57,465 nucleotides of DNA from a virus (taxonomy: Duplodnaviria; Caudoviricetes): positions 1 through 57,465 of IMG/VR virus record IMGVR_UViG_3300013132_000059; one strand, 5' to 3'. Positions 7,006 to 48,204 of the stretch are shown in pieces. The notes below the pieces were generated by a model. It ran no database searches and was not told the origin of the DNA. It was given only the letters and a program-made list of their open reading frames with translations. Each line of letters starts with the position of its first letter. Within the stretch, counting starts at the first letter, position 1. The translations under genes were made by a program, and so were the position numbers.

Positions 7006-8835
7006 TTATAACACCACACATTCTACTAAATGAATGCCAATATCTATATTAGTTTCTAATGCTATTGCAAATACATCTAAGCTAGTTTGTCCTTTAATAG
7101 CAGTTCCTTCACTGTGTGCTACTAACTTATCACCTTTATTAATAGGGCATACAACTTTGACTGGTACTCGACCTTTCAAAGCAACTGCTGTACCATTTTC
7201 ACATTTATCATTCATTAAAAATGCAGGATCTTCACTTACAACACCAATAGCCCTTTGTCCAATATTAGAGGAAGTTACCTCTTTTTCCCCACCAACTACT
7301 AATACAGTACCTACTTCATAGTCCTTATCAGCAACAAATTTTTCTGCCAAGTCAGCATATGCTGCTCTTGATGATTGACCTGTAAAGAACTGTGTGGTTA
7401 AAGTATTTGTATTAGGATTATATGTAAGTCCTGTAGCATCAATTTTTAAATCTTGATATCCTGAACTACCACTTGTGAATGTTAAATAATGAGTTGCATC
7501 TACTATATTAGCAGTCAATACGCTGATTCTATCAGCATCACCCGCATTAACTAAACTTGTAATAGGTACCCAATCTAATAATCCTGAACTACTAACGCTC
7601 AAGATTTCATTTACATTGCCAATACTTAAAAAAGATGTACTATTTGGACTTGATTGATATGGTATTGCGTTAGACGTCCCACCGTTTAAATTAGTTGTTC
7701 TTGAAGATAACCCTATAAATTGAGTAGCTGTCAATGCTCCGTTGCTATCTCTTGCTGCAACAGTATTAGCATCTGCTGCTACACTACCTTCTCTATAAGT
7801 TCCATTAACATTTAAATATTCTGCATTAAGGGCAGTTCCCCTTAAAGTTCCATAAAAATCTAATGCATATACACTATTAAATTTTAAATCACTTCGACCT
7901 ATATTGCTTATTAAATTTGACCCAGGTAATATATCATTACCTTGTAACTTCATAGGGGTTTTATCTGTGGCTCCTTGATCTGCTGTAACTCTTGTTAAGA
8001 AATTTATAATACCATCAAGTTTTATAGACCTAAAAGAAACATCACCATTATTATTGATAAATGTTTGTAGTGTATCTTGAGATCCCAATGTAAATCCATT
8101 ATTACTAAAACTTACTGTACCAGTAAATTCAGGGCTATTAGATAAAACAAAATCAGAAGCAGTCTTACCACTAAGTTTTAAACTATTACTGCTAGTGCCC
8201 CAAAATCTGTAATCAGAACTTGTAACACCATAATTAATATCAGAACTTGACGTAATCATTGTGTCTACAAGAGTGATACCCTTTTTAATTACTTTAAACC
8301 CATCAATAATTCCGTCTGGTAATATAAATTCTGCACTGCTTGTAACAAAAATAGTTTTATTATTGACTAAGGCTTTAACAATAGCGTGTACAGTACCATT
8401 TGTATCAGTTATGCTAACACTCTTAAGTTCTGTAGTGCCTGCATTTTCAACAGCCTGTGGACCTACTAAAATAAAACTAGCACCACCCCAAGCATAAAGT
8501 TGGTTAGTTTCTGTATTAAACCAAAAGTCACCAGTAGTCAATCCGCTAGGTTCATTACCACCTACCTCTGCACCACCAGTAGTTCTAAACTTTGTTCCGT
8601 CGTAAAATTTTAATTTTTTATTACCGCTATCGTACCAAATTTGACCTGATATTCTACGGGGTGGCTCACTAGTACTGGCAAAATTTTCCAGTAAATGAAC
8701 CATGTTTTCATTTTGTACCTCGCCATAACCGGCATAATTCCTACCGATTAATTTGATATCTAAGGTATTATCAACGGTACCATCTTCAACTGTAGTAAGA
8801 ATTGTACCATTGTACCTATTAATATTGTATGGCAT
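7006..8835 (-). CDS. Tail fibre-like protein, paralog 3, with a C-terminal peptidase G2/chaperone-like domain
   Basis: Shared N-terminal GxNY.GYGE..NEN..HLLENFA...GQIWYD domain. C-terminus YADLAEKF...GVVS...ALKGRVPVKV...KGD.L. Confidence 0.7.
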   Translation of the reverse strand: MPYNINRYNGTILTTVEDGTVDNTLDIKLIGRNYAGYGEVQNENMVHLLENFASTSEPPRRISGQIWYDSGNKKLKFYDGTKFRTTGGAEVGGNEPSGLTTGDFWFNTETNQLYAWGGASFILVGPQAVENAGTTELKSVSITDTNGTVHAIVKALVNNKTIFVTSSAEFILPDGIIDGFKVIKKGITLVDTMITSSSDINYGVTSSDYRFWGTSSNSLKLSGKTASDFVLSNSPEFTGTVSFSNNGFTLGSQDTLQTFINNNGDVSFRSIKLDGIINFLTRVTADQGATDKTPMKLQGNDILPGSNLISNIGRSDLKFNSVYALDFYGTLRGTALNAEYLNVNGTYREGSVAADANTVAARDSNGALTATQFIGLSSRTTNLNGGTSNAIPYQSSPNSTSFLSIGNVNEILSVSSSGLLDWVPITSLVNAGDADRISVLTANIVDATHYLTFTSGSSGYQDLKIDATGLTYNPNTNTLTTQFFTGQSSRAAYADLAEKFVADKDYEVGTVLVVGGEKEVTSSNIGQRAIGVVSEDPAFLMNDKCENGTAVALKGRVPVKVVCPINKGDKLVAHSEGTAIKGQTSLDVFAIALETNIDIGIHLVECVVL

Positions 8836-40784: not shown

Positions 40785-41791
40785 GTTTATTTAAAAAGGC
40801 AGCATTTTTTACAGACATACACTTTGGCCTTAAATCTAATAGTCAAATACATAATCAAGACTGTGAAGATTTTGTAGATTGGTTTATTAAAACAGCAAAA
40901 GAGAATGGTTGTGATACTGGATTTTTTCTTGGTGATTGGCATCATAATCGTAACAGTCTTAATATTGTTACTATGGATTACAGCCTTAGAAGTTTAGAAA
41001 AACTAGGCCAAGCATTTGATCAGTTCTACTTCTTTCCTGGTAATCATGATCTATACTATAAAGATAAACGAGATATTCATAGTGTGGAGTTTGGCAAATA
41101 TATACCAGGTATCACCGTTGTACATAAACCTATGACACAAGGTGAAGTTACTATGTGTCCTTGGCTTGTAGGTGATGAGTGGAAAACTGTAGGAAAAAAA
41201 GATGCACGTTATATCTTTGGTCACTTTGAACTGCCCAGTTTCTTTATGAATGCCATGGTACAGATGCCTGATCATGGTGAAATACAATTGAGCCAATTTA
41301 AAAAATATGAAGTTGGCCTAAGTGGACATTTTCATAAACGCCAAAATAAACAGAACATGCACTATATTGGCAATGCCTTTCCACATAACTATGCTGATGC
41401 TTGGGATGATGATAGAGGTATGATGATCTTAGAGTGGGGAGGCGAACCTGAATACTATGCTTGGCCCGATCAACCTACCTTTAGAACTATTTCATTGAGT
41501 AGGCTTATTGATGAAAAAGATACATTAATTAAACCTAAACAACATCTTAGAGTAACATTGGACATACCTATTAGTTATGAGGAAGGCAGTTTGATCAAAG
41601 AAGATTTTATTGGAAATTATAACATTCGTGAACTCACACTGATTCCTGAAAAGCGTGATGTTGAAATTAATAGCGATTTAGAAATTACAGCGTTTGAAAG
41701 TTTAGACCAAATTGTAATAAATCAGTTGACAAGTTTAGAAAGTGACACTTATAATATTAAACTTCTTATGGATATCTATAAAAATATATGA
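40781..41791 (+). CDS. Recombination endonuclease, gp47/Mre11/SbcD-like
   Basis: Metallophosphoesterase motifs TDIHFG, GDWHH, GNHD, GHFE, SGHFH. Confidence 0.93.
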   Translation: MSLFKKAAFFTDIHFGLKSNSQIHNQDCEDFVDWFIKTAKENGCDTGFFLGDWHHNRNSLNIVTMDYSLRSLEKLGQAFDQFYFFPGNHDLYYKDKRDIHSVEFGKYIPGITVVHKPMTQGEVTMCPWLVGDEWKTVGKKDARYIFGHFELPSFFMNAMVQMPDHGEIQLSQFKKYEVGLSGHFHKRQNKQNMHYIGNAFPHNYADAWDDDRGMMILEWGGEPEYYAWPDQPTFRTISLSRLIDEKDTLIKPKQHLRVTLDIPISYEEGSLIKEDFIGNYNIRELTLIPEKRDVEINSDLEITAFESLDQIVINQLTSLESDTYNIKLLMDIYKNI

Positions 41792-43560
41792 TAAAAATAA
41801 AAGACTTAACCGTTAGAAATTTTATGAGCGTGGGTAATAATACTCAGGCAGTAGATTTTTGTAAGGAACAACTGACATTGGTCTTAGGCGAGAATCTGGA
41901 CCAGGGTGGTGATGATAGTGGCAGTCGTAATGGTACAGGTAAAACTACCATCATTAATGCTCTAAGCTACGCTCTTTTTGGACAGGCACTGACCAACATC
42001 AAGAAGGATAATCTCGTCAACAAGACCAATAATAAAAATATGTTAGTCACACTGAACTTTGAAAAGAATGGCACTACTTACAAAGTAGAACGTGGGCGTA
42101 GACCTAATGTTTTCAAGTTCTATATCAATGGTGAAGAACAAGAAATCATTGATGAAAGTCAAGGTGATGTAAGAGAAACACAGAAGGACTTGGATGATCT
42201 ACTGGGTATGACGCACGATATGTTTAAAAATATTGTTGCTCTAAATACTTACACAGAGCCTTTTCTCAGTATGAGGGCTGCTGACCAACGTATGATTATT
42301 GAGCAATTGCTGGGTATTACCTTACTCAGTGAAAAAAGTGATGCACTGAAAGAATTAGTTAGACAAAGTAAAGAAGCCATACAGCAGGAAACTGCCAACA
42401 TTGAAGCCACTAAGAAAAGTAATGATCGTATTGAACAAAGTATCCTCAGCCTACAATCAAAACAACGGGCTTGGAGTAAACAGCAGCAGGATGACATTGA
42501 AAAATTAGCATCTAATATTGAGGAACTACAAAATATAGACATTGAGGAAGAATTGGGTCAGCATAAACGTCTTAAAAGTTATCTTGACCTAAGTAATCGT
42601 ATCAGTAGTTTGAACAAAGAAAGTGCTACTCTTGAGACTGCTCTAATGCAGGCTGAAAAGAATTGGAAGAAGTTTGTTAAGGAAGTAGAAGACTTGGCAA
42701 CTCATAATTGTCCCAAGTGTAACAATCCAATTCACGATGCCCAACATAAAGAAATGAAAAAGGCTGCTCAAAAAAGTGTAAGTGAATCAGCCCTCTATAT
42801 GGAAAATGTAGGACAAAAATTAGAACTTGTGATCAGTGAACTAAATGAAATTGGTGATATAAATGGTAGACCAGAAACTTTTTATGACACTGTGGAAGAG
42901 GCTCTAAAGCATCAAAACAATCTTAAAACATTAGAAGATGCCTTGATACGACGCAGTGAAGAAACTGATCCATATCAAGAACAGATTGATGAACTACGCA
43001 ATACAGCAATGGAAGAAATTAATTGGGATCGTGTCAATGAACTCACTGCTATAAAAGATCATCAAGAGTTTTTAATTAAATTGTTGACCAGCAAGGATAG
43101 TTTTATTCGTAAAAAGATTATTGATCAAAACTTGAACTATCTCAATAATAGGCTAAGTTATTACTTGGATCGTATGGGATTGCCACATCAAGTGTTATTT
43201 CAGAATGACCTCACTGTAGAAATTACTCAACTAGGACAGGACTTAGACTTTGATAATTTAAGCAGAGGTGAACGCAATAGATTAATCTTAGGACTAAGTT
43301 GGGCATTTAGAGATGTTTGGGAAAGTTTATATCAGAATATTAATTTATTATTCATTGATGAACTTATTGACAACGGATTAGATTCAAGTGGAGTAGAAAG
43401 TGCTCTTGCTGTGTTGAAAAAGATGGCCAGAGAGCGTAATAAAAATATCTACTTGATCAGTCATAAAGATGAGCTACAGGGTAGAGTAAACAATGTACTC
43501 AAGGTCATTAAGGAAAATGGTTATACTAGTTATGCTACAGACTTGGAGATCATAGATTGA
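41788..43560 (+). CDS. Recombination ATPase, gp46/Rad50/SbcC-like
   Basis: Walker A NGTGKTT, coiled coil with CPKC zinc hook, LSRGE signature, IDE Walker B, ISH. Confidence 0.95.
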   Translation: MIKIKDLTVRNFMSVGNNTQAVDFCKEQLTLVLGENLDQGGDDSGSRNGTGKTTIINALSYALFGQALTNIKKDNLVNKTNNKNMLVTLNFEKNGTTYKVERGRRPNVFKFYINGEEQEIIDESQGDVRETQKDLDDLLGMTHDMFKNIVALNTYTEPFLSMRAADQRMIIEQLLGITLLSEKSDALKELVRQSKEAIQQETANIEATKKSNDRIEQSILSLQSKQRAWSKQQQDDIEKLASNIEELQNIDIEEELGQHKRLKSYLDLSNRISSLNKESATLETALMQAEKNWKKFVKEVEDLATHNCPKCNNPIHDAQHKEMKKAAQKSVSESALYMENVGQKLELVISELNEIGDINGRPETFYDTVEEALKHQNNLKTLEDALIRRSEETDPYQEQIDELRNTAMEEINWDRVNELTAIKDHQEFLIKLLTSKDSFIRKKIIDQNLNYLNNRLSYYLDRMGLPHQVLFQNDLTVEITQLGQDLDFDNLSRGERNRLILGLSWAFRDVWESLYQNINLLFIDELIDNGLDSSGVESALAVLKKMARERNKNIYLISHKDELQGRVNNVLKVIKENGYTSYATDLEIID

Positions 43561-44680: not shown

Positions 44681-45321
44681 ATATTGAATTACATTTATTC
44701 ACGAATAGTTCAATTAGTTCACCATCAACTTCTCTAATTGAAAAAACTTATAAATCGTTTCTAAAGACTTTTAAAATTAATTTAGAGACTTTTGTATGGG
44801 TAGATCCTAATCCTAATATTAAAGAATTTGAAGAATATCAAAAAAATTTAAAAAAAATATTTAAAAATATACAAGTATCAAATAGTTTGAGTGATGGTTA
44901 TGTTAGAGGAGTTGATCAATCTAATAAAGACTTCTTGTTCATGTTGGAACATGATTGGATTTTTACAGAAAACTTGAAACACTCTTTAGAAGATATATTA
45001 AAAGTAATGTATGATAATAATTTGATACATTTAAGATTTAATAAAAGAAACAATATAGTAAAAAATTGGGACAAAGAATTATTGGAAGTGAAAACTCCTA
45101 TATTTGATTATTGCTTAACTTCAAATATTAGCAATAATCCACATATTATTAATAGAAGTATATGGCTTACTGAGGCAAAAAAATATATTAAAATTCAAAA
45201 AGGCAATACAGGCATTGAACAAGAACTAATAAAGGCAAACTTAAAAGGCGCTATATATGGTGGATTAAATTATCCAAACACTATACAACACTTAGATGGA
45301 AAGGCAAATAAAAATTTTTGA
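44677..45321 (+). CDS. GT-A-like glycosyltransferase
   Basis: FLFMLEHDW acidic motif, SNNPHI and C-terminal HLDG. Confidence 0.6.
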   Translation: MNIELHLFTNSSISSPSTSLIEKTYKSFLKTFKINLETFVWVDPNPNIKEFEEYQKNLKKIFKNIQVSNSLSDGYVRGVDQSNKDFLFMLEHDWIFTENLKHSLEDILKVMYDNNLIHLRFNKRNNIVKNWDKELLEVKTPIFDYCLTSNISNNPHIINRSIWLTEAKKYIKIQKGNTGIEQELIKANLKGAIYGGLNYPNTIQHLDGKANKNF

Positions 45322-45337
45322 CCATGATATATAATAG

Positions 45338-45775
45338 ATGTCATGGACACATCAAGGCCAACTAGTCACAGAAATCCTAGAGGAATATATAGGCTTCGTT
45401 TATCTTATAACCAATACAATATCAGGCAAAATGTATATTGGCAAAAAGTTATCAAAGTTTGCCAAAACTACTTACAAGGTCGTAAAATTAAAAAATGGCA
45501 CTAAGAAACGTAAAAAAATTAAAGGCAAAATAGAAAGTGATTGGCAAGATTATTATGGCTCAAACGACGCATTAAAGGCAGATGTAATAAAATTAGGTCC
45601 AGAAAAATTCCAACGAGAAATATTATACTATTGTAAAAGTAAGGCAGAATGTAGTTACATAGAGGCAAGAGAACAATTCTCAAGGCGTGTATTGGAAAGC
45701 GATGACTACTATAACGGACAGATCAGTGTTCGTGTTCATGGTAGTCATATCAAAGGCAAAATTTTAAACGGTTAA
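45338..45775 (+). CDS. Small free-standing GIY-YIG (Seg-like) endonuclease
   Basis: GFVYLITN...GKMYIGKK, YYGS, conserved E (YIEARE) and YYN. Carries a basic insert KLKNGTKKRKKIK. Confidence 0.85.
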   Translation: MSWTHQGQLVTEILEEYIGFVYLITNTISGKMYIGKKLSKFAKTTYKVVKLKNGTKKRKKIKGKIESDWQDYYGSNDALKADVIKLGPEKFQREILYYCKSKAECSYIEAREQFSRRVLESDDYYNGQISVRVHGSHIKGKILNG

Positions 45776-46195
45776 GGCTTGGCACCGGCTAAACTTCAGG
45801 TGCCTCTATACCTGGACAAATGTATCGCAGGGATGATTTCGCTGCCGTAGCGAGGACTCAGCCACTACCCGCAAGGATGACGATCACTTAACTGCCGTGA
45901 TTTGGCTGTTTGAATAGGATAAAGGCCAAAAGACGCTGATTTTCAGCACGTTTTACAAATATGTTAGCGTATATTTGTAAAGCCGCCGTTGTATGAAGAC
46001 TGTGCTCGAGGTACCGGACAACCGCCTCTGTAATGCACTAACGCTAATGACCGAGCAACTCGCATAATGTTCTTCGCCCTGTGTGGGCGAAGTGTGACGT
46101 CACAATCTGCATAATATTAAAAAAAACAAAAGACGAAGAAAAAACTTTTTAGGACGACTAAGTCCTAAAAAAGAGTGAGCGTAGCATCACTCTCC
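45776..46195 (+). ncRNA. Candidate large structured non-coding RNA (family not recognised)
   Basis: ORF-free and GC-rich (65/120 GC by hand count in 45781-45900). About ten helices, nested multi-stem domains, a GCAA tetraloop, and loop 45963-45970 complementary to 46041-46048. Confidence 0.65.
46146..46192. terminator. Two tandem hairpins, possible terminator or RNA 3' end
   Basis: tttttaggac/gtcctaaaaa (46146-46171) and gagtga/tcactc (46173-46192) follow an A-rich tract. Confidence 0.45.
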
Positions 46196-46199
46196 TTAA

Positions 46200-46205
46200 T
46201 AAATA
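46200..46205 (+). promoter_or_regulatory. Late promoter core TAAATA
   Basis: 4 nt before ATG 46210. Confidence 0.65.
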
Positions 46206-46209
46206 CAAG

Positions 46210-47142
46210 ATGAAAATCTTAGAAATAATTGGTGCTTTATCAAGAGTTGGTGGATATTTAATGAATCCTGTAACTACTAAAGGAATATCTCAAACGGCTA
46301 AACTGTCTAAAGACACATTGCCTTTTAAAAATGCTGCTAAAGCAACTAAAGCTGGAGAAAAGGCTGCAAAAAACATGCGTAAGGTTATACCTTTCGCTAG
46401 TAAAGGTGGGTGGATTGAGAAAACTCTGACTAAGTCTTTTGTAAACAGAAATCTTAAAGCTCTCAATGCTGCTAAAGCAGAAATTGCTCGTAATGGAACA
46501 CAGGTATTTGGTGATACCATATTCAAATTATTTTGGGCAGCGAACATTTGGGACGCAGTCACTGATTATTATGCAGCAAAGCAAATATTATTAGAAAATC
46601 CACCTCCTGATGCTGATGCTCAGTTGAAAAAATTACAAGGTCAATTTATGGCACAAGTTTTATTACCTGGAATAGCCATGGGTGGTGCAAAATTATTAGG
46701 AATGATTCCTAATGCATTGGCCAGCGTAGCAAAGTCATCACCGGGAACTACATTACCTAAATTGGGTATGACTATAAATGTAGCCACTGATTTCATAGTT
46801 AGAGCAGGAGCAGCCGGTGCACTGGCAGTATTCATGACTGATGAAGGTAAACAAAAAATTTCAGAATGGTTAGGTGGAGTTATAGATGGTCTAGGATTTG
46901 TTAGTTCTCCATTGTTTACTCTACTTGAATATGCAGTACCGGCATTAGAAATGGCCACAGGTATGAAGGCTCCACAGGTGGTTAAGAATTTTGTAGCGCA
47001 ACCAAAAGCACCTGCTGCTGGTGCTCAAGGTGGTTCAGATCAAAGTGGAGTTGCAGGATCTGTACTAGGCGCACTGGCAGGTGGCGGCACCTTGGATGAT
47101 ATTGCAGCCACCAAATTTGCAGATATGGTCACTAAAAAATAA
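46210..47142 (+). CDS. Hypothetical late protein, possible internal head/ejection protein
   Basis: TAAATA 4 nt upstream, MKILEII N-terminus, basic first third, Ala/Gly-rich hydrophobic helices. Confidence 0.6.
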   Translation: MKILEIIGALSRVGGYLMNPVTTKGISQTAKLSKDTLPFKNAAKATKAGEKAAKNMRKVIPFASKGGWIEKTLTKSFVNRNLKALNAAKAEIARNGTQVFGDTIFKLFWAANIWDAVTDYYAAKQILLENPPPDADAQLKKLQGQFMAQVLLPGIAMGGAKLLGMIPNALASVAKSSPGTTLPKLGMTINVATDFIVRAGAAGALAVFMTDEGKQKISEWLGGVIDGLGFVSSPLFTLLEYAVPALEMATGMKAPQVVKNFVAQPKAPAAGAQGGSDQSGVAGSVLGALAGGGTLDDIAATKFADMVTKK

Positions 47143-47364: not shown

Positions 47365-48204
47365 TTAGCCTCTGGCGAAAAAATTTGCCTGATCCATTGT
47401 TATACTGATTTTACTTTGATGACTGCACTCTGGACATTGTACATCTTGTTCTGGAATATCCCATTGACGTTTATTTGCTTCTAGTTTTTCTTTTATTTTT
47501 TTATAAAATTCTTTGTCACTATTTCTAATCCATTCACTGATCATTTCTTTATCATCTACCAGTTGATCAGGTAATTGAACATGTTCTATACTAATTTCAA
47601 ATAGTTCAACTTGCATTTCTGCTATACGTTTGTAGATATCATCTTGAGTTTGCAGTGTTTGTTCTTCGTTGCCAGCACTTTCCATCTTGCTAAGTTGATA
47701 TAGCATTTTTTGTAGTTTGTAATTTTCTACATTAAACTTAGTAACTTCTTCATAGCGCAAAGGTCTAATTGTTACTTGTAGTTCACCTAGATCAATTTTT
47801 CCATCGTAGACCTGTTCACTTAGGTATGATAATACTTGCCCCAAATTCACAGTGTAATCATTCATACTTTGACAGTTTGGACATCTATGCATAACGTCCA
47901 TCTCACTGCCATAAGTGGCTATTCTTATAGCAACAAGTAAGCAGTCAACATCAATACTGGGCATATTCCAAGCATTTTTAATATATGGGCAGCAACTTTC
48001 AATAACTTTTACACTACTTTCACCGTTAAATAAAGCATCAGGCGTTTTCATCAATATTTCGTCCATACCAGTCATACCAAAAATTGGGGCATTTGCACTG
48101 TTACCGACAAAATCTTGTTCACCATAGTAGGCACCTTTGCTGGGTAAAGCAATGTAAATTTTAGGTTGTCTAAAGTATTTCTGTAGAGGGTTTCCTTGTG
48201 CCAT
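47365..48204 (-). CDS. Baseplate hub/tail assembly chaperone, gp26-like
   Basis: LPS.G, MT..DE, D...LL.AIR.A.YG, CPNC...CPEC, and an ending ..NFF. Confidence 0.8.
   Translation of the reverse strand: MAQGNPLQKYFRQPKIYIALPSKGAYYGEQDFVGNSANAPIFGMTGMDEILMKTPDALFNGESSVKVIESCCPYIKNAWNMPSIDVDCLLVAIRIATYGSEMDVMHRCPNCQSMNDYTVNLGQVLSYLSEQVYDGKIDLGELQVTIRPLRYEEVTKFNVENYKLQKMLYQLSKMESAGNEEQTLQTQDDIYKRIAEMQVELFEISIEHVQLPDQLVDDKEMISEWIRNSDKEFYKKIKEKLEANKRQWDIPEQDVQCPECSHQSKISITMDQANFFARG

What the first reader, a model, noticed from the sequence alone, without database searches (positions are those of the whole stretch)
45338..46195. Compact GIY-YIG nuclease followed immediately by a ~420-nt highly structured ncRNA candidate: possible nuclease-RNA system
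Seen: this is the only long ORF-free stretch in a tightly packed window. It starts at the nuclease stop codon and is much more GC-rich than its flanks. Helices: ggcacc/ggtgcc (45781-45804); cctg/cagg (45811-45831); ttcgct/agcgag (45838-45854); a multistem closed by cagcca/tggctg (45859-45908) containing cc-GCAA-gg and atcac/gtgat; gctga/tcagc (45935-45947); an 11-bp perfect stem (45952-45981); gtgc/gcac enclosing gagg/cctc and cgg-acaa-ccg (46002-46038); cgag/ctcg; ttcgccc/gggcgaa (46073-46091). The 145-aa protein is essentially a bare catalytic domain plus a very basic insert (KLKNGTKKRKKIK). Known: GIY-YIG homing nucleases such as I-TevI use C-terminal DNA-binding domains, and compact nucleases such as TnpB and IscB get specificity from an adjacent structured RNA. 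Inference: the protein and RNA form an RNP, possibly RNA-guided or RNA-scaffolded. Alternatively the element is a replication or packaging origin nicked by the nuclease.
Basis: partly seen in the sequence, partly recalled or inferred. Interest (0 to 1): 0.9.

Follow-up and report, generated by a model that had tools for sequence, protein, structure and literature searches.

The report
Large pseudoknotted phage RNA behind nuclease gene
The gap after a small phage nuclease gene encodes a real, roughly 350-base folded RNA whose first third is an already catalogued orphan RNA motif; its job is unknown, and nothing tested so far shows that it guides the nuclease.

Summary
Window 45776-46209 is the longest ORF-free stretch, is GC-rich (0.48 against 0.33 overall) and folds better than shuffles.

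The first 135 nt (45777-45911) are Rfam RF01718, Polynucleobacter-1, at 88.9 bits. RF01718 is only the 5' domain of a ~350-nt RNA (45768-46115) with two covarying pseudoknots. I found this RNA in 128 further IMG/VR phage contigs.

On 60 diverse copies, 91% of cells pair, against 31-42% in slid controls. 54 of 75 pairs show compensatory change.

Two single-stranded segments 47 nt apart, X and X', carry the same variable 7-mer in 100 of 101 unique copies (11 alleles). No complementary partner was found in cis or in a 99%-complete 345-kb phage genome. This is unexplained.

A SegE-type GIY-YIG gene lies directly upstream in 107 of 116 assessable loci, all in one syntenic neighbourhood. The same protein family occurs without the RNA in 9 of 74 close relatives and in 3 of 3 cultured phages tested, with the same basic hairpin.

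Best reading: an autonomous phage ncRNA made as the 3' tail of the nuclease transcript. An RNA-nuclease RNP remains possible, at about 13%.

The parts
45338..45775 (+). GIY-YIG nuclease gene, 145 aa, catalytic domain only, with a long basic beta-hairpin insert
   Evidence: PF19835 SegE_GIY-YIG, E 2.1e-32, residues 3-129 on profile 1-123/123. phrog_447, E 1.3e-35. AF2 model pLDDT 88.5, strands 40-50 and 56-66 form the insert. Best PDB fold match is the I-TevI catalytic domain, prob 0.97 and TM 0.65 on the target, but E only 0.1.
45768..46115 (+). Full structured RNA, about 350 nt, from the 5' pseudoknot strand to the end of segment X'
   Evidence: Conserved end to end in loci found with either the 5' or the 3' pattern. 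On 60 copies, 91.1% of cells pair against 31-42% in slid controls; 54 of 75 pairs show change on both sides; 0 of 500 shuffles reach this. Many G-U pairs fit the + strand only.
45777..45911 (+). 5' domain, a member of Rfam RF01718 (Polynucleobacter-1 RNA)
   Evidence: cmscan 88.9 bits, gathering score 37, E 1.2e-17, model 1-141/141.
45768..45771 (+). 5' strand of pseudoknot PK1, inside the last two sense codons of the nuclease ORF; it pairs with 45845-45848 in the loop of hairpin P3
   Evidence: Mutual information for 45770-45846 and 45768-45848. Helix 1: 4 of 4 pairs with change on both sides, 86% paired.
45935..45947 (+). Hairpin P5 in the linker between the two domains
   Evidence: Covariation at 45936-45946, 45937-45945 and 45938-45944. 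In the 60-copy MAFFT alignment this helix (helix 10) is poorly aligned: 54 of 60 sequences are gapped at three of its four pairs.
45952..45981 (+). 11-bp hairpin P6; its loop (45964-45970) forms pseudoknot PK2 with 46041-46047
   Evidence: Helix 11: 11 of 11 pairs with change on both sides. Helix 12 (PK2): 7 of 7 pairs with change on both sides, 97.6% paired.
46002..46038 (+). P7 three-tier stem holding the most invariant core of the RNA (about 46010-46026)
   Evidence: Helices 13-15. Invariant columns listed. This core was the search pattern that found at least 120 contigs.
46055..46068 (+). Segment X, single-stranded, with 4 variable positions that always equal those of X'
   Evidence: the 7-mer is identical in 100 of 101 unique sequences, with 11 alleles; shuffled mean 16.5, maximum 29.
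46073..46091 (+). Hairpin P8 between X and X'; position 45995 covaries with its pair 46075-46089
   Evidence: helix 16, 87% paired.
46102..46115 (+). Segment X', a direct-repeat twin of X 47 nt downstream. The three bases before the variable 7-mer are CUC in X and UCU in X' in 101 of 101 sequences
46145..46192 (.). Two hairpins after the RNA. They score as terminator-like only on the minus strand; no T-run follows them on the + strand
   Evidence: Comparable hairpin pairs follow the RNA in other loci.
46197..46205 (+). T4-late-promoter-like ATAAATA motif just before the ATG of the downstream 310-aa ORF (46210-47142)
   Evidence: The motif lies between the RNA and the next same-strand gene in 36 of 47 loci, against 8 of 62 loci where the next gene is convergent. 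The T4 late promoter consensus TATAAATA is recalled knowledge.

Best explanation
The gap encodes an autonomous, phage-specific, complex-folded non-coding RNA of about 350 nt (45768-46115). Its 5' third is the orphan Rfam motif RF01718.

The RNA is transcribed as the 3' continuation of the GIY-YIG nuclease message, at the end of a rightward block (gp47/gp46-like genes, small variable genes, nuclease). It is not a leader of the next gene.

The fold is a rigid scaffold: eight covarying helices and two pseudoknots. It presents two single-stranded arms, X and X', that are kept identical at their variable positions. I infer that both arms are read by one and the same trans-acting partner. That partner could be a nucleic acid able to pair with both arms (a GGG-containing strand could pair with CUC and with UCU by wobble) or a dimeric protein. 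The partner is probably host-encoded, because no complement exists in a near-complete phage genome.

The nuclease is a conserved single-copy phage enzyme that works without this RNA in many phages. Its adjacency to the RNA reflects a shared transcription unit and inherited synteny.

Shown: the RNA's existence, extent, fold and strand, its position, the X = X' rule, and the separability of protein and RNA. Inferred: co-transcription, trans action, and the nature of the partner.
For: RNA reality and extent.
- RF01718 hit.
- The region downstream of that hit is conserved in all loci with enough sequence.
- Pair counts on 60 copies: 91.1% paired, 54 of 75 pairs compensatory, 0 of 500 shuffles as good, slid controls 31-42%.
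- Both pseudoknots covary.

Not a 5' leader.
- The next gene is convergent in 70 of 119 loci that have a called downstream ORF.
- Same-strand downstream genes mostly carry their own ATAAATA motif: 36 of 47.

Contiguity with the nuclease message.
- PK1's 5' strand lies in the ORF's last codons.
- Contigs from RNA libraries of relatives bridge the ORF end and the RNA: 45608-45915 in X19 and 45577-45828 in X20. This is weak, because contigs cannot exclude DNA.

Twin arms.
- The 7-mer is identical in 100 of 101 unique copies, with 11 alleles and a fixed CUC/UCU difference.
- X's variable positions covary with nothing else in the RNA.

Protein independent of RNA.
- 414 cultured-phage records hold one copy each of the protein family.
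- Melnitz, phiN3 and P-HM1 have no RF01718 in their whole genomes, 0 of 3, and the next CDS follows directly.
- 9 of 74 assessable close-homolog loci lack the RNA within 1.5 kb. Their proteins keep the same insert and C-terminus.
- All RNA loci share one neighbourhood, so the adjacency could trace to a single ancestral event.
Against: - No partner for X and X' was found, so the central mechanistic step is pure inference.
- Adjacency to the nuclease is very tight (107 of 116 directly adjacent, 7 more with one ORF between). It survives turnover of genes on both sides and replacement of the RNA's 5' domain (types B and C). That is more than most neighbours show.
- In the one clear locus without the GIY-YIG gene (L004), a different nuclease, PF24608 PDDEXK_15 at E 4e-26, sits in the same place. 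This hints that 'a nuclease next to this RNA' may matter.
- No + strand terminator defines a 3' end. No read-level data define the ends or the abundance of a discrete RNA (one search was contigs only).
- The RNA-less contigs are fragments, 9-32% complete, so the RNA could lie elsewhere in those genomes.
Confidence: 0.45

Rival explanations
1. RNA-nuclease RNP. The domain-only GIY-YIG enzyme binds the RNA encoded at its own 3' end. X and X' act as guide or bridging arms that aim the nuclease at complementary DNA or RNA.
For: - Adjacency in 107 of 116 loci, plus 7 with one ORF between.
- The RNA starts inside the ORF end, as TnpB omega-RNAs do (recalled).
- The whole 145-aa protein is catalytic domain, with no DNA-binding domain.
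- It carries a confidently modelled basic beta-hairpin.
- X and X' behave like strands read by base pairing.
- L004 has another nuclease family in the same slot.
Against: - The same protein subfamily, with the same insert and tail, stands without the RNA in 9 of 74 loci.
- More distant homologs in 3 of 3 complete cultured phage genomes lack the RNA.
- The basic insert is conserved in those homologs too.
- Only 11 alleles occur over 4 variable positions, which is not guide-like diversity.
- No complementary site was found in the window, within +/-3 kb in 122 loci, or allele-matched in 5 large contigs including a 99%-complete genome.
- All loci share one syntenic neighbourhood, so there is no independent re-association.
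Confidence: 0.13
2. A free-standing homing-type endonuclease parked beside its target. The conserved RNA gene supplies the long invariant recognition sequence, and the nuclease gene spreads with it.
For: - The Pfam family is named after T4 SegE.
- PHROG relatives are annotated as homing endonucleases.
- Weak NCBIfam hit to group I intron endonucleases.
- An unrelated nuclease gene occupies the same slot in L004. This pattern is known for homing endonuclease hot spots in T4-like phages (recalled).
- ORFs are inserted between nuclease and RNA in 7 loci, so this is a plastic site.
Against: - The distribution is not sporadic. The gene is present in 114 of 116 RNA loci and as one copy in each of 414 cultured-phage records, which looks like a core gene.
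- There is no DNA-binding domain.
- Nuclease-positive, RNA-negative genomes exist.
Confidence: 0.12
3. A cis-acting 3' UTR device. The fold stabilises or times the nuclease message. PK1 and P1 can form only when no ribosome sits on the stop codon, which couples translation to RNA folding.
For: - PK1's 5' strand lies in the last codons.
- The RNA sits at the end of the transcription unit.
- Contigs from RNA libraries bridge ORF and RNA.
Against: - 350 nt with two pseudoknots, an invariant core and twin arms is far more than known 3' stabilisers need.
- The RNA stays intact when another ORF separates it from the nuclease (7 loci).
- It also stays intact when the nuclease is replaced (L004).
- This reading does not explain X = X'.
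Confidence: 0.1
4. A primer or R-loop RNA of a replication origin, like ColE1 RNA II or the T4 R-loop origins. The folded transcript keeps an upstream segment (X) able to pair with the template strand at the identical downstream site (X'), fixing a persistent RNA-DNA hybrid next to an A/T-rich stretch.
For: - An RNA segment that must pair with the template DNA of a second site needs exactly the X = X' identity seen.
- In the window an A-rich tract follows X'.
- R-loop origins are established for T4 and ColE1 (recalled).
- The locus lies beside the recombination genes gp46/gp47.
Against: - The GC-skew turn in the window is at about 40 kb and follows gene strand; it is not at this locus.
- The A-rich tract is not conserved in other loci.
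- No initiator or iteron array is present.
- There is no experimental handle.
Confidence: 0.08
5. A cis-regulatory 5' leader or riboswitch of the downstream gene. This is the proposal attached to RF01718 by its describers: Table 1 of PMC2864571 marks it as probably cis-regulatory, and the 5' UTR detail is recalled.
For: - In the window and in 48 other loci a same-strand gene follows.
- The table entry in PMC2864571 gives 'y' for cis-regulatory (passage only).
Against: - The next gene is convergent in 70 of 119 loci.
- Same-strand followers belong to at least 6 unrelated clusters.
- Most of them have their own late-promoter-like motif between the RNA and the ATG (36 of 47).
Confidence: 0.03

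Closest known systems
Rfam RF01718, Polynucleobacter-1 RNA (Weinberg et al. 2010, PMC2864571)
   Same: Window 45777-45911 matches the whole model at 88.9 bits. All 12 loci found with a pattern from this domain also score 78.8-121.1 bits. Freshwater origin agrees with the table entry 'Burkholderiales, fresh water/estuary' and with the run labels.
   Different: The Rfam model covers only the 5' 135 nt. Here it is one domain of a ~350-nt RNA, joined by a pseudoknot strand upstream of the model and by about 200 nt downstream. It is carried by T4-like phage contigs and lies 3' of a nuclease gene rather than 5' of a regulated gene. In related loci the same 3' core carries a different 5' domain with no Rfam match (types B and C).
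OMEGA systems: TnpB and IscB with their omega-RNAs
   Same: A compact nuclease gene with a long structured RNA encoded at, and overlapping, its end.
   Different: The nuclease fold is GIY-YIG, not RuvC or HNH. There is no transposon context and no hypervariable guide. The protein family exists widely without the RNA. No Rfam omega-RNA family hits.
Seg-type free-standing GIY-YIG homing endonucleases of T4, and the I-TevI catalytic domain
   Same: The Pfam family is named for SegE. The best fold match is the I-TevI catalytic domain. The gene sits beside a highly conserved gene.
   Different: There is no DNA-binding domain. It is single-copy and near-universal rather than sporadic. A long basic beta-hairpin is inserted between the motifs.
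Large ornate bacterial and phage RNAs of unknown function (GOLLD, ROOL, OLE, raiA class)
   Same: Several hundred nucleotides, multi-pseudoknotted, strongly covarying, phage-borne and of environmental origin, with no known biochemical role. The class is described in PMC12286853 (listing and abstract seen).
   Different: No sequence or structure match to any of those Rfam families. It is smaller, and has twin identical single-stranded arms. Oligomerisation was not tested.
Rfam RF02947, cow-rumen-2 RNA
   Same: Window 45951-46047 aligns over the full model, with a hairpin bearing a similar loop followed by a similar purine-GCCGCC stretch.
   Different: Only 22 bits against a gathering score of 66, E 0.11. 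This is not a member, at most a distant echo.

Membership tests
Rfam RF01718 Polynucleobacter-1 | Covariance-model score at or above the curated gathering score (37 bits) over the full model | tested here: met
   88.9 bits, model 1-141/141, not truncated.
Rfam RF01718 Polynucleobacter-1 | Consensus helices of the model kept by compensatory change | tested here: met
   Helices 2-9 lie in this domain: 75-100% of cells paired, and most pairs show change on both sides.
Rfam RF01718 Polynucleobacter-1 | Position in the 5' UTR of a conserved downstream gene (the describers' proposal; the detail is recalled) | tested here: not met
   The next gene is convergent in 70 of 119 loci, and the followers are of several unrelated clusters. 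This bears on the proposed role, not on membership by sequence and structure.
GIY-YIG nuclease superfamily (Pfam PF19835 SegE_GIY-YIG) | Profile match above the curated cut-off | tested here: met
   112.4 bits against a cut-off of 25, E 2.1e-32.
GIY-YIG nuclease superfamily (Pfam PF19835 SegE_GIY-YIG) | Conserved motif residues: the two Tyr-bearing strands, Arg, Glu and Asn of the active site (the residue roles are recalled from I-TevI) | tested here: met
   Y22, Y33-I34-G35, R58, R93-E94 and N126 are invariant or nearly so across RNA-linked and RNA-less homologs. Their catalytic role is inferred.
GIY-YIG nuclease superfamily (Pfam PF19835 SegE_GIY-YIG) | GIY-YIG alpha/beta fold | tested here: inconclusive
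   Model pLDDT 88.5. The top two PDB hits are the I-TevI catalytic domain, prob 0.96-0.97 and target TM 0.65-0.66, but E 0.1-0.2 and rmsd about 10.5 A because of the insert.
Free-standing homing endonuclease (Seg/Mob type) | Separate DNA-binding domain that gives long-site specificity | tested here: not met
   The 145-aa protein is covered end to end by the catalytic-domain profile.
Free-standing homing endonuclease (Seg/Mob type) | Sporadic presence among closely related genomes | tested here: not met
   Present in 114 of 116 RNA loci. One copy in each of 414 cultured-phage records.
RNA-guided nuclease of the OMEGA or CRISPR kind | Variable guide segment complementary to a target, beside a conserved scaffold | tested here: not met
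   The only variable unpaired positions have 11 alleles and are duplicated in the RNA. No complement was found.
RNA-guided nuclease of the OMEGA or CRISPR kind | Obligate co-occurrence of effector and RNA | tested here: not met
   The RNA is absent next to 9 of 74 close homologs and from 3 of 3 cultured phage genomes that carry the protein.
RNA-guided nuclease of the OMEGA or CRISPR kind | Physical RNA-protein complex and RNA-dependent cleavage | not testable with these tools
   Needs biochemistry.
Group I intron, tRNA, tmRNA or another catalogued RNA | Match to the family model | tested here: not met
   No Rfam family other than RF01718 at E below 0.1 in 45700-46260. ARAGORN finds 0 genes in the window.

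The most novel reading that the evidence does not exclude
The RNA and the domain-only GIY-YIG enzyme form an RNP. The two identical 13-nt arms X and X' pair with two copies of one DNA sequence. The complex thereby aims the nuclease, or brings two homologous DNA molecules together for it. That would be an RNA-directed GIY-YIG nuclease, used by T4-like phages next to their gp46/gp47 recombination genes.
Probability: 0.1. Interest if true: 0.95.

Novelty: new variant of a known kind. Interest (0 to 1): 0.58.

Why it matters
RF01718 has sat in Rfam since 2010 as a short orphan motif, thought to be a bacterial cis-regulator.

Here it turns out to be the 5' domain of a much larger, doubly pseudoknotted RNA. 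That RNA belongs to uncultured freshwater T4-like, partly jumbo, phages. It has sister forms (types B and C) that share only the 3' core.

Large complex-folded RNAs of this kind have repeatedly turned out to be ribozymes, RNP scaffolds or self-assembling particles, so this one is a concrete candidate for structural and biochemical work.

The rule that two arms 47 nt apart must carry the same variable bases is an unusual signal. It is covariation by identity, not by complement. It points to a single external reader and makes the function testable by mutating one arm.

For annotation, the result says two things. The 434-nt gap is an RNA gene, not junk. The neighbouring 'NAD synthetase' or 'homing endonuclease' labels on the protein family are unsafe.

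Tried and rejected
Searches for relatives that found nothing.
- blastn of the RNA against 50,697 cultured phage records: type A, type B, type C.
- tblastn and pattern search for relatives of the downstream 310-aa protein. It also has no Pfam, PHROG or NCBIfam family.
- The strict 5' pattern in 185,579 species genomes gave 0 hits. The 3' pattern hit 2 MAG contigs. The Polynucleobacter genome named in the Rfam family was therefore not recovered. I did not run the covariance model over bacterial genomes.

Search for a partner of X and X'.
- Complement with G-U allowed within +/-3 kb: no consistent site.
- In the whole window: only the antisense of X and X' themselves, plus 2 chance-level sites.
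- A degenerate complement pattern in 5 large contigs: allele-matched hits were only the RNA gene's own opposite strand, and totals were below the reversed-pattern control.
- A 9-mer scan found that X can pair by wobble with the U/G-rich joint at about 45906-45914 in 43 of 122 loci. That joint is absent from types B and C, X' does not fit it, and it cannot explain the identity. I rejected it as the reason.

Other ideas rejected.
- A coding reading of X to X'. In the window a 15-codon frame runs from the ATG in X to the stop in X' (read by eye). The frame is not kept in other loci.
- GC skew as an origin signal: the turn is at about 40 kb, with gene strand.

Weak or inconclusive evidence.
- RNA-library contigs cover only the ORF and the RNA. 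They were laid at 85% likeness, so flanks that relatives do not share could not be covered. This says nothing about transcript ends.
- The RNA core pattern is absent from 5 RNA-less contigs, but those are 9-32% complete.

Not available.
- Supplementary tables of PMC2864571 and PMC10690425 could not be opened. The latter lists 8,495 short phage RNA candidates and discarded regions overlapping Rfam hits (passages). Pieces of the 3' domain may be among them.
Full report
What is at the coordinates

The window is an IMG/VR virus record of 57,465 bases, estimated 16% complete. It carries T4-like genes: an SbcC/gp46-like gene at 41788-43560 and a baseplate-hub gene at 47365-48204 on the minus strand.

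ORF 45338-45775 (+, 145 aa) is followed by 434 nt without an ORF of 90 aa or more. This is the longest such gap in the window. GC is 0.478 in 45776-46120 against 0.33 overall (profile). The stretch folds at -125.3 kcal/mol against -105.9 +/- 5.9 for shuffles, and 0 of 100 shuffles fold as well.

A third of it is a known family

cmscan places Rfam RF01718 (Polynucleobacter-1 RNA) on 45777-45911, over the full model, at 88.9 bits against a gathering score of 37. Nothing else in 45700-46260 reaches E below 0.1. The next best hit is cow-rumen-2 at 22 bits, E 0.11, on 45951-46047. ARAGORN finds no tRNA or tmRNA in the window.

In the library, RF01718 appears only in the 2010 catalogue paper. I saw its table line there: probable RNA, probably cis-regulatory, 'Burkholderiales, fresh water/estuary'. 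The statement that it lies in 5' UTRs of genes related to a cyanophage gene is my recollection, not a call.

The RNA is much larger than the Rfam model

A pattern from the 5' domain found 12 IMG/VR contigs, all of which score as RF01718. In every one with enough sequence, the next ~210 nt are conserved as well.

Together with the window, 129 sources carry it, but only 10 match the strict 5' pattern. A viewed sample of 22 still shows a recognisable, more diverged 5' domain.

It also adds two pseudoknots:
- PK1 pairs 45768-45771 with 45845-45848, in the loop of the third hairpin.
- PK2 pairs 45964-45970, in the loop of the 11-bp hairpin, with 46041-46047.

I then aligned 60 diverse copies and counted pairs for a structure written from the window:
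- 91.1% of 4,280 cells are standard pairs, against 31-42% when partners are slid by 1-3 columns.
- 54 of 75 pairs have changes on both sides.
- 0 of 500 shuffles reach the observed values.
- PK1 has 4 of 4 pairs and PK2 has 7 of 7 pairs with changes on both sides.
- Frequent G-U pairs fit the + strand only.

The structure was derived from one of these sequences and from their covariation. That inflates the contrast somewhat, but not on this scale.

PK1's 5' strand lies in the last two sense codons of the nuclease ORF. The RNA therefore starts inside the gene.

An unexplained rule: X equals X'

Two unpaired segments, X (46055-46068) and X' (46102-46115), flank hairpin P8. Each follows a similar short motif. 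Their four variable positions covary by identity, not by complement.

The 7-mer is the same in 100 of 101 unique copies. It has 11 alleles. Shuffling X' among sequences gives a mean of 16.5 matches and a maximum of 29. The three bases before the 7-mer are always CUC in X and always UCU in X' (101 of 101). That argues against simple gene conversion. It is compatible with one partner strand carrying GGG, which is my inference.

X's variable positions covary with nothing else in the RNA. I found no complement in any of these places:
- Within +/-3 kb of the RNA.
- In the window.
- In five large contigs, one of them 345 kb and 99% complete. Allele-matched hits there were only the gene's own opposite strand, and totals were below the control.

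A wobble pairing of X with the U/G-rich joint near 45906-45914 is possible in 43 of 122 loci. It does not apply to X' or to the variant RNAs.

One locus (L015) has lost exactly the segment between X and X'.

The rule also holds in two diverged forms of the RNA:
- Type B has another 5' domain and the same 3' core.
- Type C shares little beyond the module of X, hairpin and X', with a further allele.

These were seen in the sequences printed. Neither type has an Rfam match or a blastn match in cultured phages.

The nuclease

The protein is PF19835 (SegE_GIY-YIG), E 2.1e-32, covered end to end by the catalytic-domain profile. It is also phrog_447. There is a weak hit to group I intron endonucleases and no significant PDB sequence hit.

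An AlphaFold model built on 34 sequences has pLDDT 88.5. The basic stretch forms a long beta-hairpin, residues 40-66. The best PDB fold matches are the I-TevI catalytic domain, with prob 0.96-0.97 but E only 0.1-0.2.

The family is not rare or sporadic. 414 cultured-phage records hold one copy each, mostly cyanomyoviruses, with Sinorhizobium, Stenotrophomonas, Methylophilales and other phages. It is often mislabelled 'NAD synthetase'.

In Melnitz-3, phiN3 and P-HM1 the next CDS follows directly, and RF01718 is absent from the whole genomes, 0 of 3. The basic segment and the motif residues are conserved in these RNA-less homologs.

How tight is the link?

Starting from the RNA: of 129 loci, 13 are cut too close to judge. 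Of the other 116:
- 107 have the nuclease gene ending at the RNA start.
- 7 have one ORF between them.
- 2 have no nuclease gene.

One of those two, L004, has a PF24608 PDDEXK endonuclease gene in the same position. The other, L034, has only about 570 nt of upstream sequence.

All loci share one neighbourhood: gp47-like, gp46-like, variable small genes, nuclease, RNA, variable genes, then a minus-strand baseplate-hub gene and a giant plus-strand gene. The many loci are therefore not independent associations.

Starting from the protein: 80 loci were chosen by protein similarity alone, at 61-79% identity. Their status is as follows:
- 62 have an nhmmer hit to the RNA.
- 3 more carry type C, judged by eye.
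- 6 are too short to judge.
- 9 have no RNA within 1.5 kb.

In 7 of those 9, a membrane-protein ORF overlaps the stop codon. In one locus (L222) the RNA hit lies upstream on the other strand.

The proteins of RNA-less loci do not differ in the insert or the C-terminus. Their contigs lack the RNA core, but are only 9-32% complete. The two sets of loci overlap in part.

Transcription context

The next gene after the RNA is convergent in 70 of 119 loci with a called downstream ORF. Same-strand followers fall into several unrelated clusters. They usually have an ATAAATA motif between the RNA and the start codon: 36 of 47, against 8 of 62 where the follower is convergent. This resembles the T4 late promoter (recalled). 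The RNA is therefore the end of a rightward unit, not a leader.

The two hairpins after the RNA score as terminators only on the minus strand.

Logan contigs from four metatranscriptome runs of four studies were laid at 85% likeness. They cover the ORF and the RNA of relatives. Two contigs bridge the ORF end and the 5' domain. One 522-nt contig, at depth 50.6, carries the RNA core of a relative. Contigs cannot show strand, ends or level, and DNA carry-over is possible, so this is only a weak hint of expression and contiguity.

DNA runs that hold the stretch are labelled lake water and freshwater, with one subsurface and one aquatic. The best holder may be the source sample.

Weighing the explanations

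The RNA is certainly real and certainly more than RF01718.

The protein family plainly works without the RNA. Close relatives lack the RNA without any change in the protein. Nothing guide-like or target-like was found.

Three results speak for some functional tie. The adjacency survives gene turnover on both sides and even replacement of the RNA's 5' domain. The RNA begins inside the ORF. A different nuclease sits in the same slot in L004.

I therefore rank the readings as follows:
- Autonomous ncRNA made as the 3' tail of the nuclease message, with twin arms read by one external partner: 0.45.
- RNP: 0.13.
- Homing-type nuclease beside its target: 0.12.
- 3' UTR device: 0.10.
- R-loop or primer RNA: 0.08.
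- 5' leader: 0.03.
- Something not thought of: the remainder.

Novelty and limits

Known: the 5' domain as an orphan motif, and the protein family.

New here, as far as my searches show (passages of PMC10690425; supplements closed):
- The full extent of the RNA.
- The two pseudoknots.
- The phage carriage and the 3'-of-nuclease position.
- The variant forms.
- The X = X' rule.

Limits: loci were gathered with exact patterns, so diverged copies are under-sampled. The pair counts rest on MAFFT alignments. No read-level RNA data were available.

Noticed in passing
window 45173-45775: The tetramer AGGC, mostly as AAGGCA or AGGCAAA, occurs 16 times in about 600 nt, in all three reading frames of two adjacent genes. 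That is 17 in this 1-kb bin against 0-9 in the other bins. In the nuclease genes of other loci the density varies from 0 to 20 per kb (median 7.0 against a locus background of 3.75). The same motif is a conserved piece of the RNA linker (about 45921-45930). Unexplained.
   Followed up: partly
L004:1257-1769 (+), directly before the RNA: In this one locus the GIY-YIG gene is replaced by a PF24608 'phage putative PDDEXK endonuclease' gene (E 4e-26) that ends 11 nt before the RF01718 match. The RNA itself is intact (109 bits).
   Followed up: partly
L192, L198, L211, L217, L223, L229, L231, L237, L246 (type B); L230, L244, L174 (type C): These are sister RNAs after the same nuclease gene. Type B has a different ~180-nt 5' domain on the same 3' core. 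Type C shares mainly the tail module (X, hairpin, X'). Neither has an Rfam match or a match in cultured phages.
   Followed up: partly
L015 (RNA about 8270-8600): This copy lacks exactly the segment from just before X to just before X'. It looks like a deletion between the two direct repeats.
   Followed up: no
window 45951-46047: Full-length but sub-threshold alignment to Rfam RF02947 cow-rumen-2 (22 bits, E 0.11). It shares a hairpin loop and the following GCCGCC stretch, and may be a distant relative of the 3' domain.
   Followed up: no
window 46145-46192: Two hairpins after the RNA score as intrinsic terminators only for the minus strand (T-runs on that strand), although the gene to their right is on the plus strand.
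   Followed up: no
L204, L212, L224, L227, L232, L236, L239: In seven close-homolog loci without the RNA, the nuclease stop codon overlaps the start (ATGA) of a conserved ORF that begins with hydrophobic, membrane-like segments followed by a coiled-coil-like part.
   Followed up: no
G001 (contig of L027/L215), 345,154 bases: A 99%-complete jumbo T4-like phage genome carries the nuclease-RNA pair. It would be the best reference genome for follow-up.
   Followed up: no
window 46210-47142: The downstream 310-aa ORF has no Pfam, PHROG or NCBIfam family and no relative in cultured phages. At this position different loci carry unrelated genes, so this is a hyperplastic slot.
   Followed up: partly
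L222:1046-1206 (-): In one protein-selected locus the RNA 3' core lies upstream of the nuclease gene on the opposite strand. This is the only rearranged pair seen.
   Followed up: no
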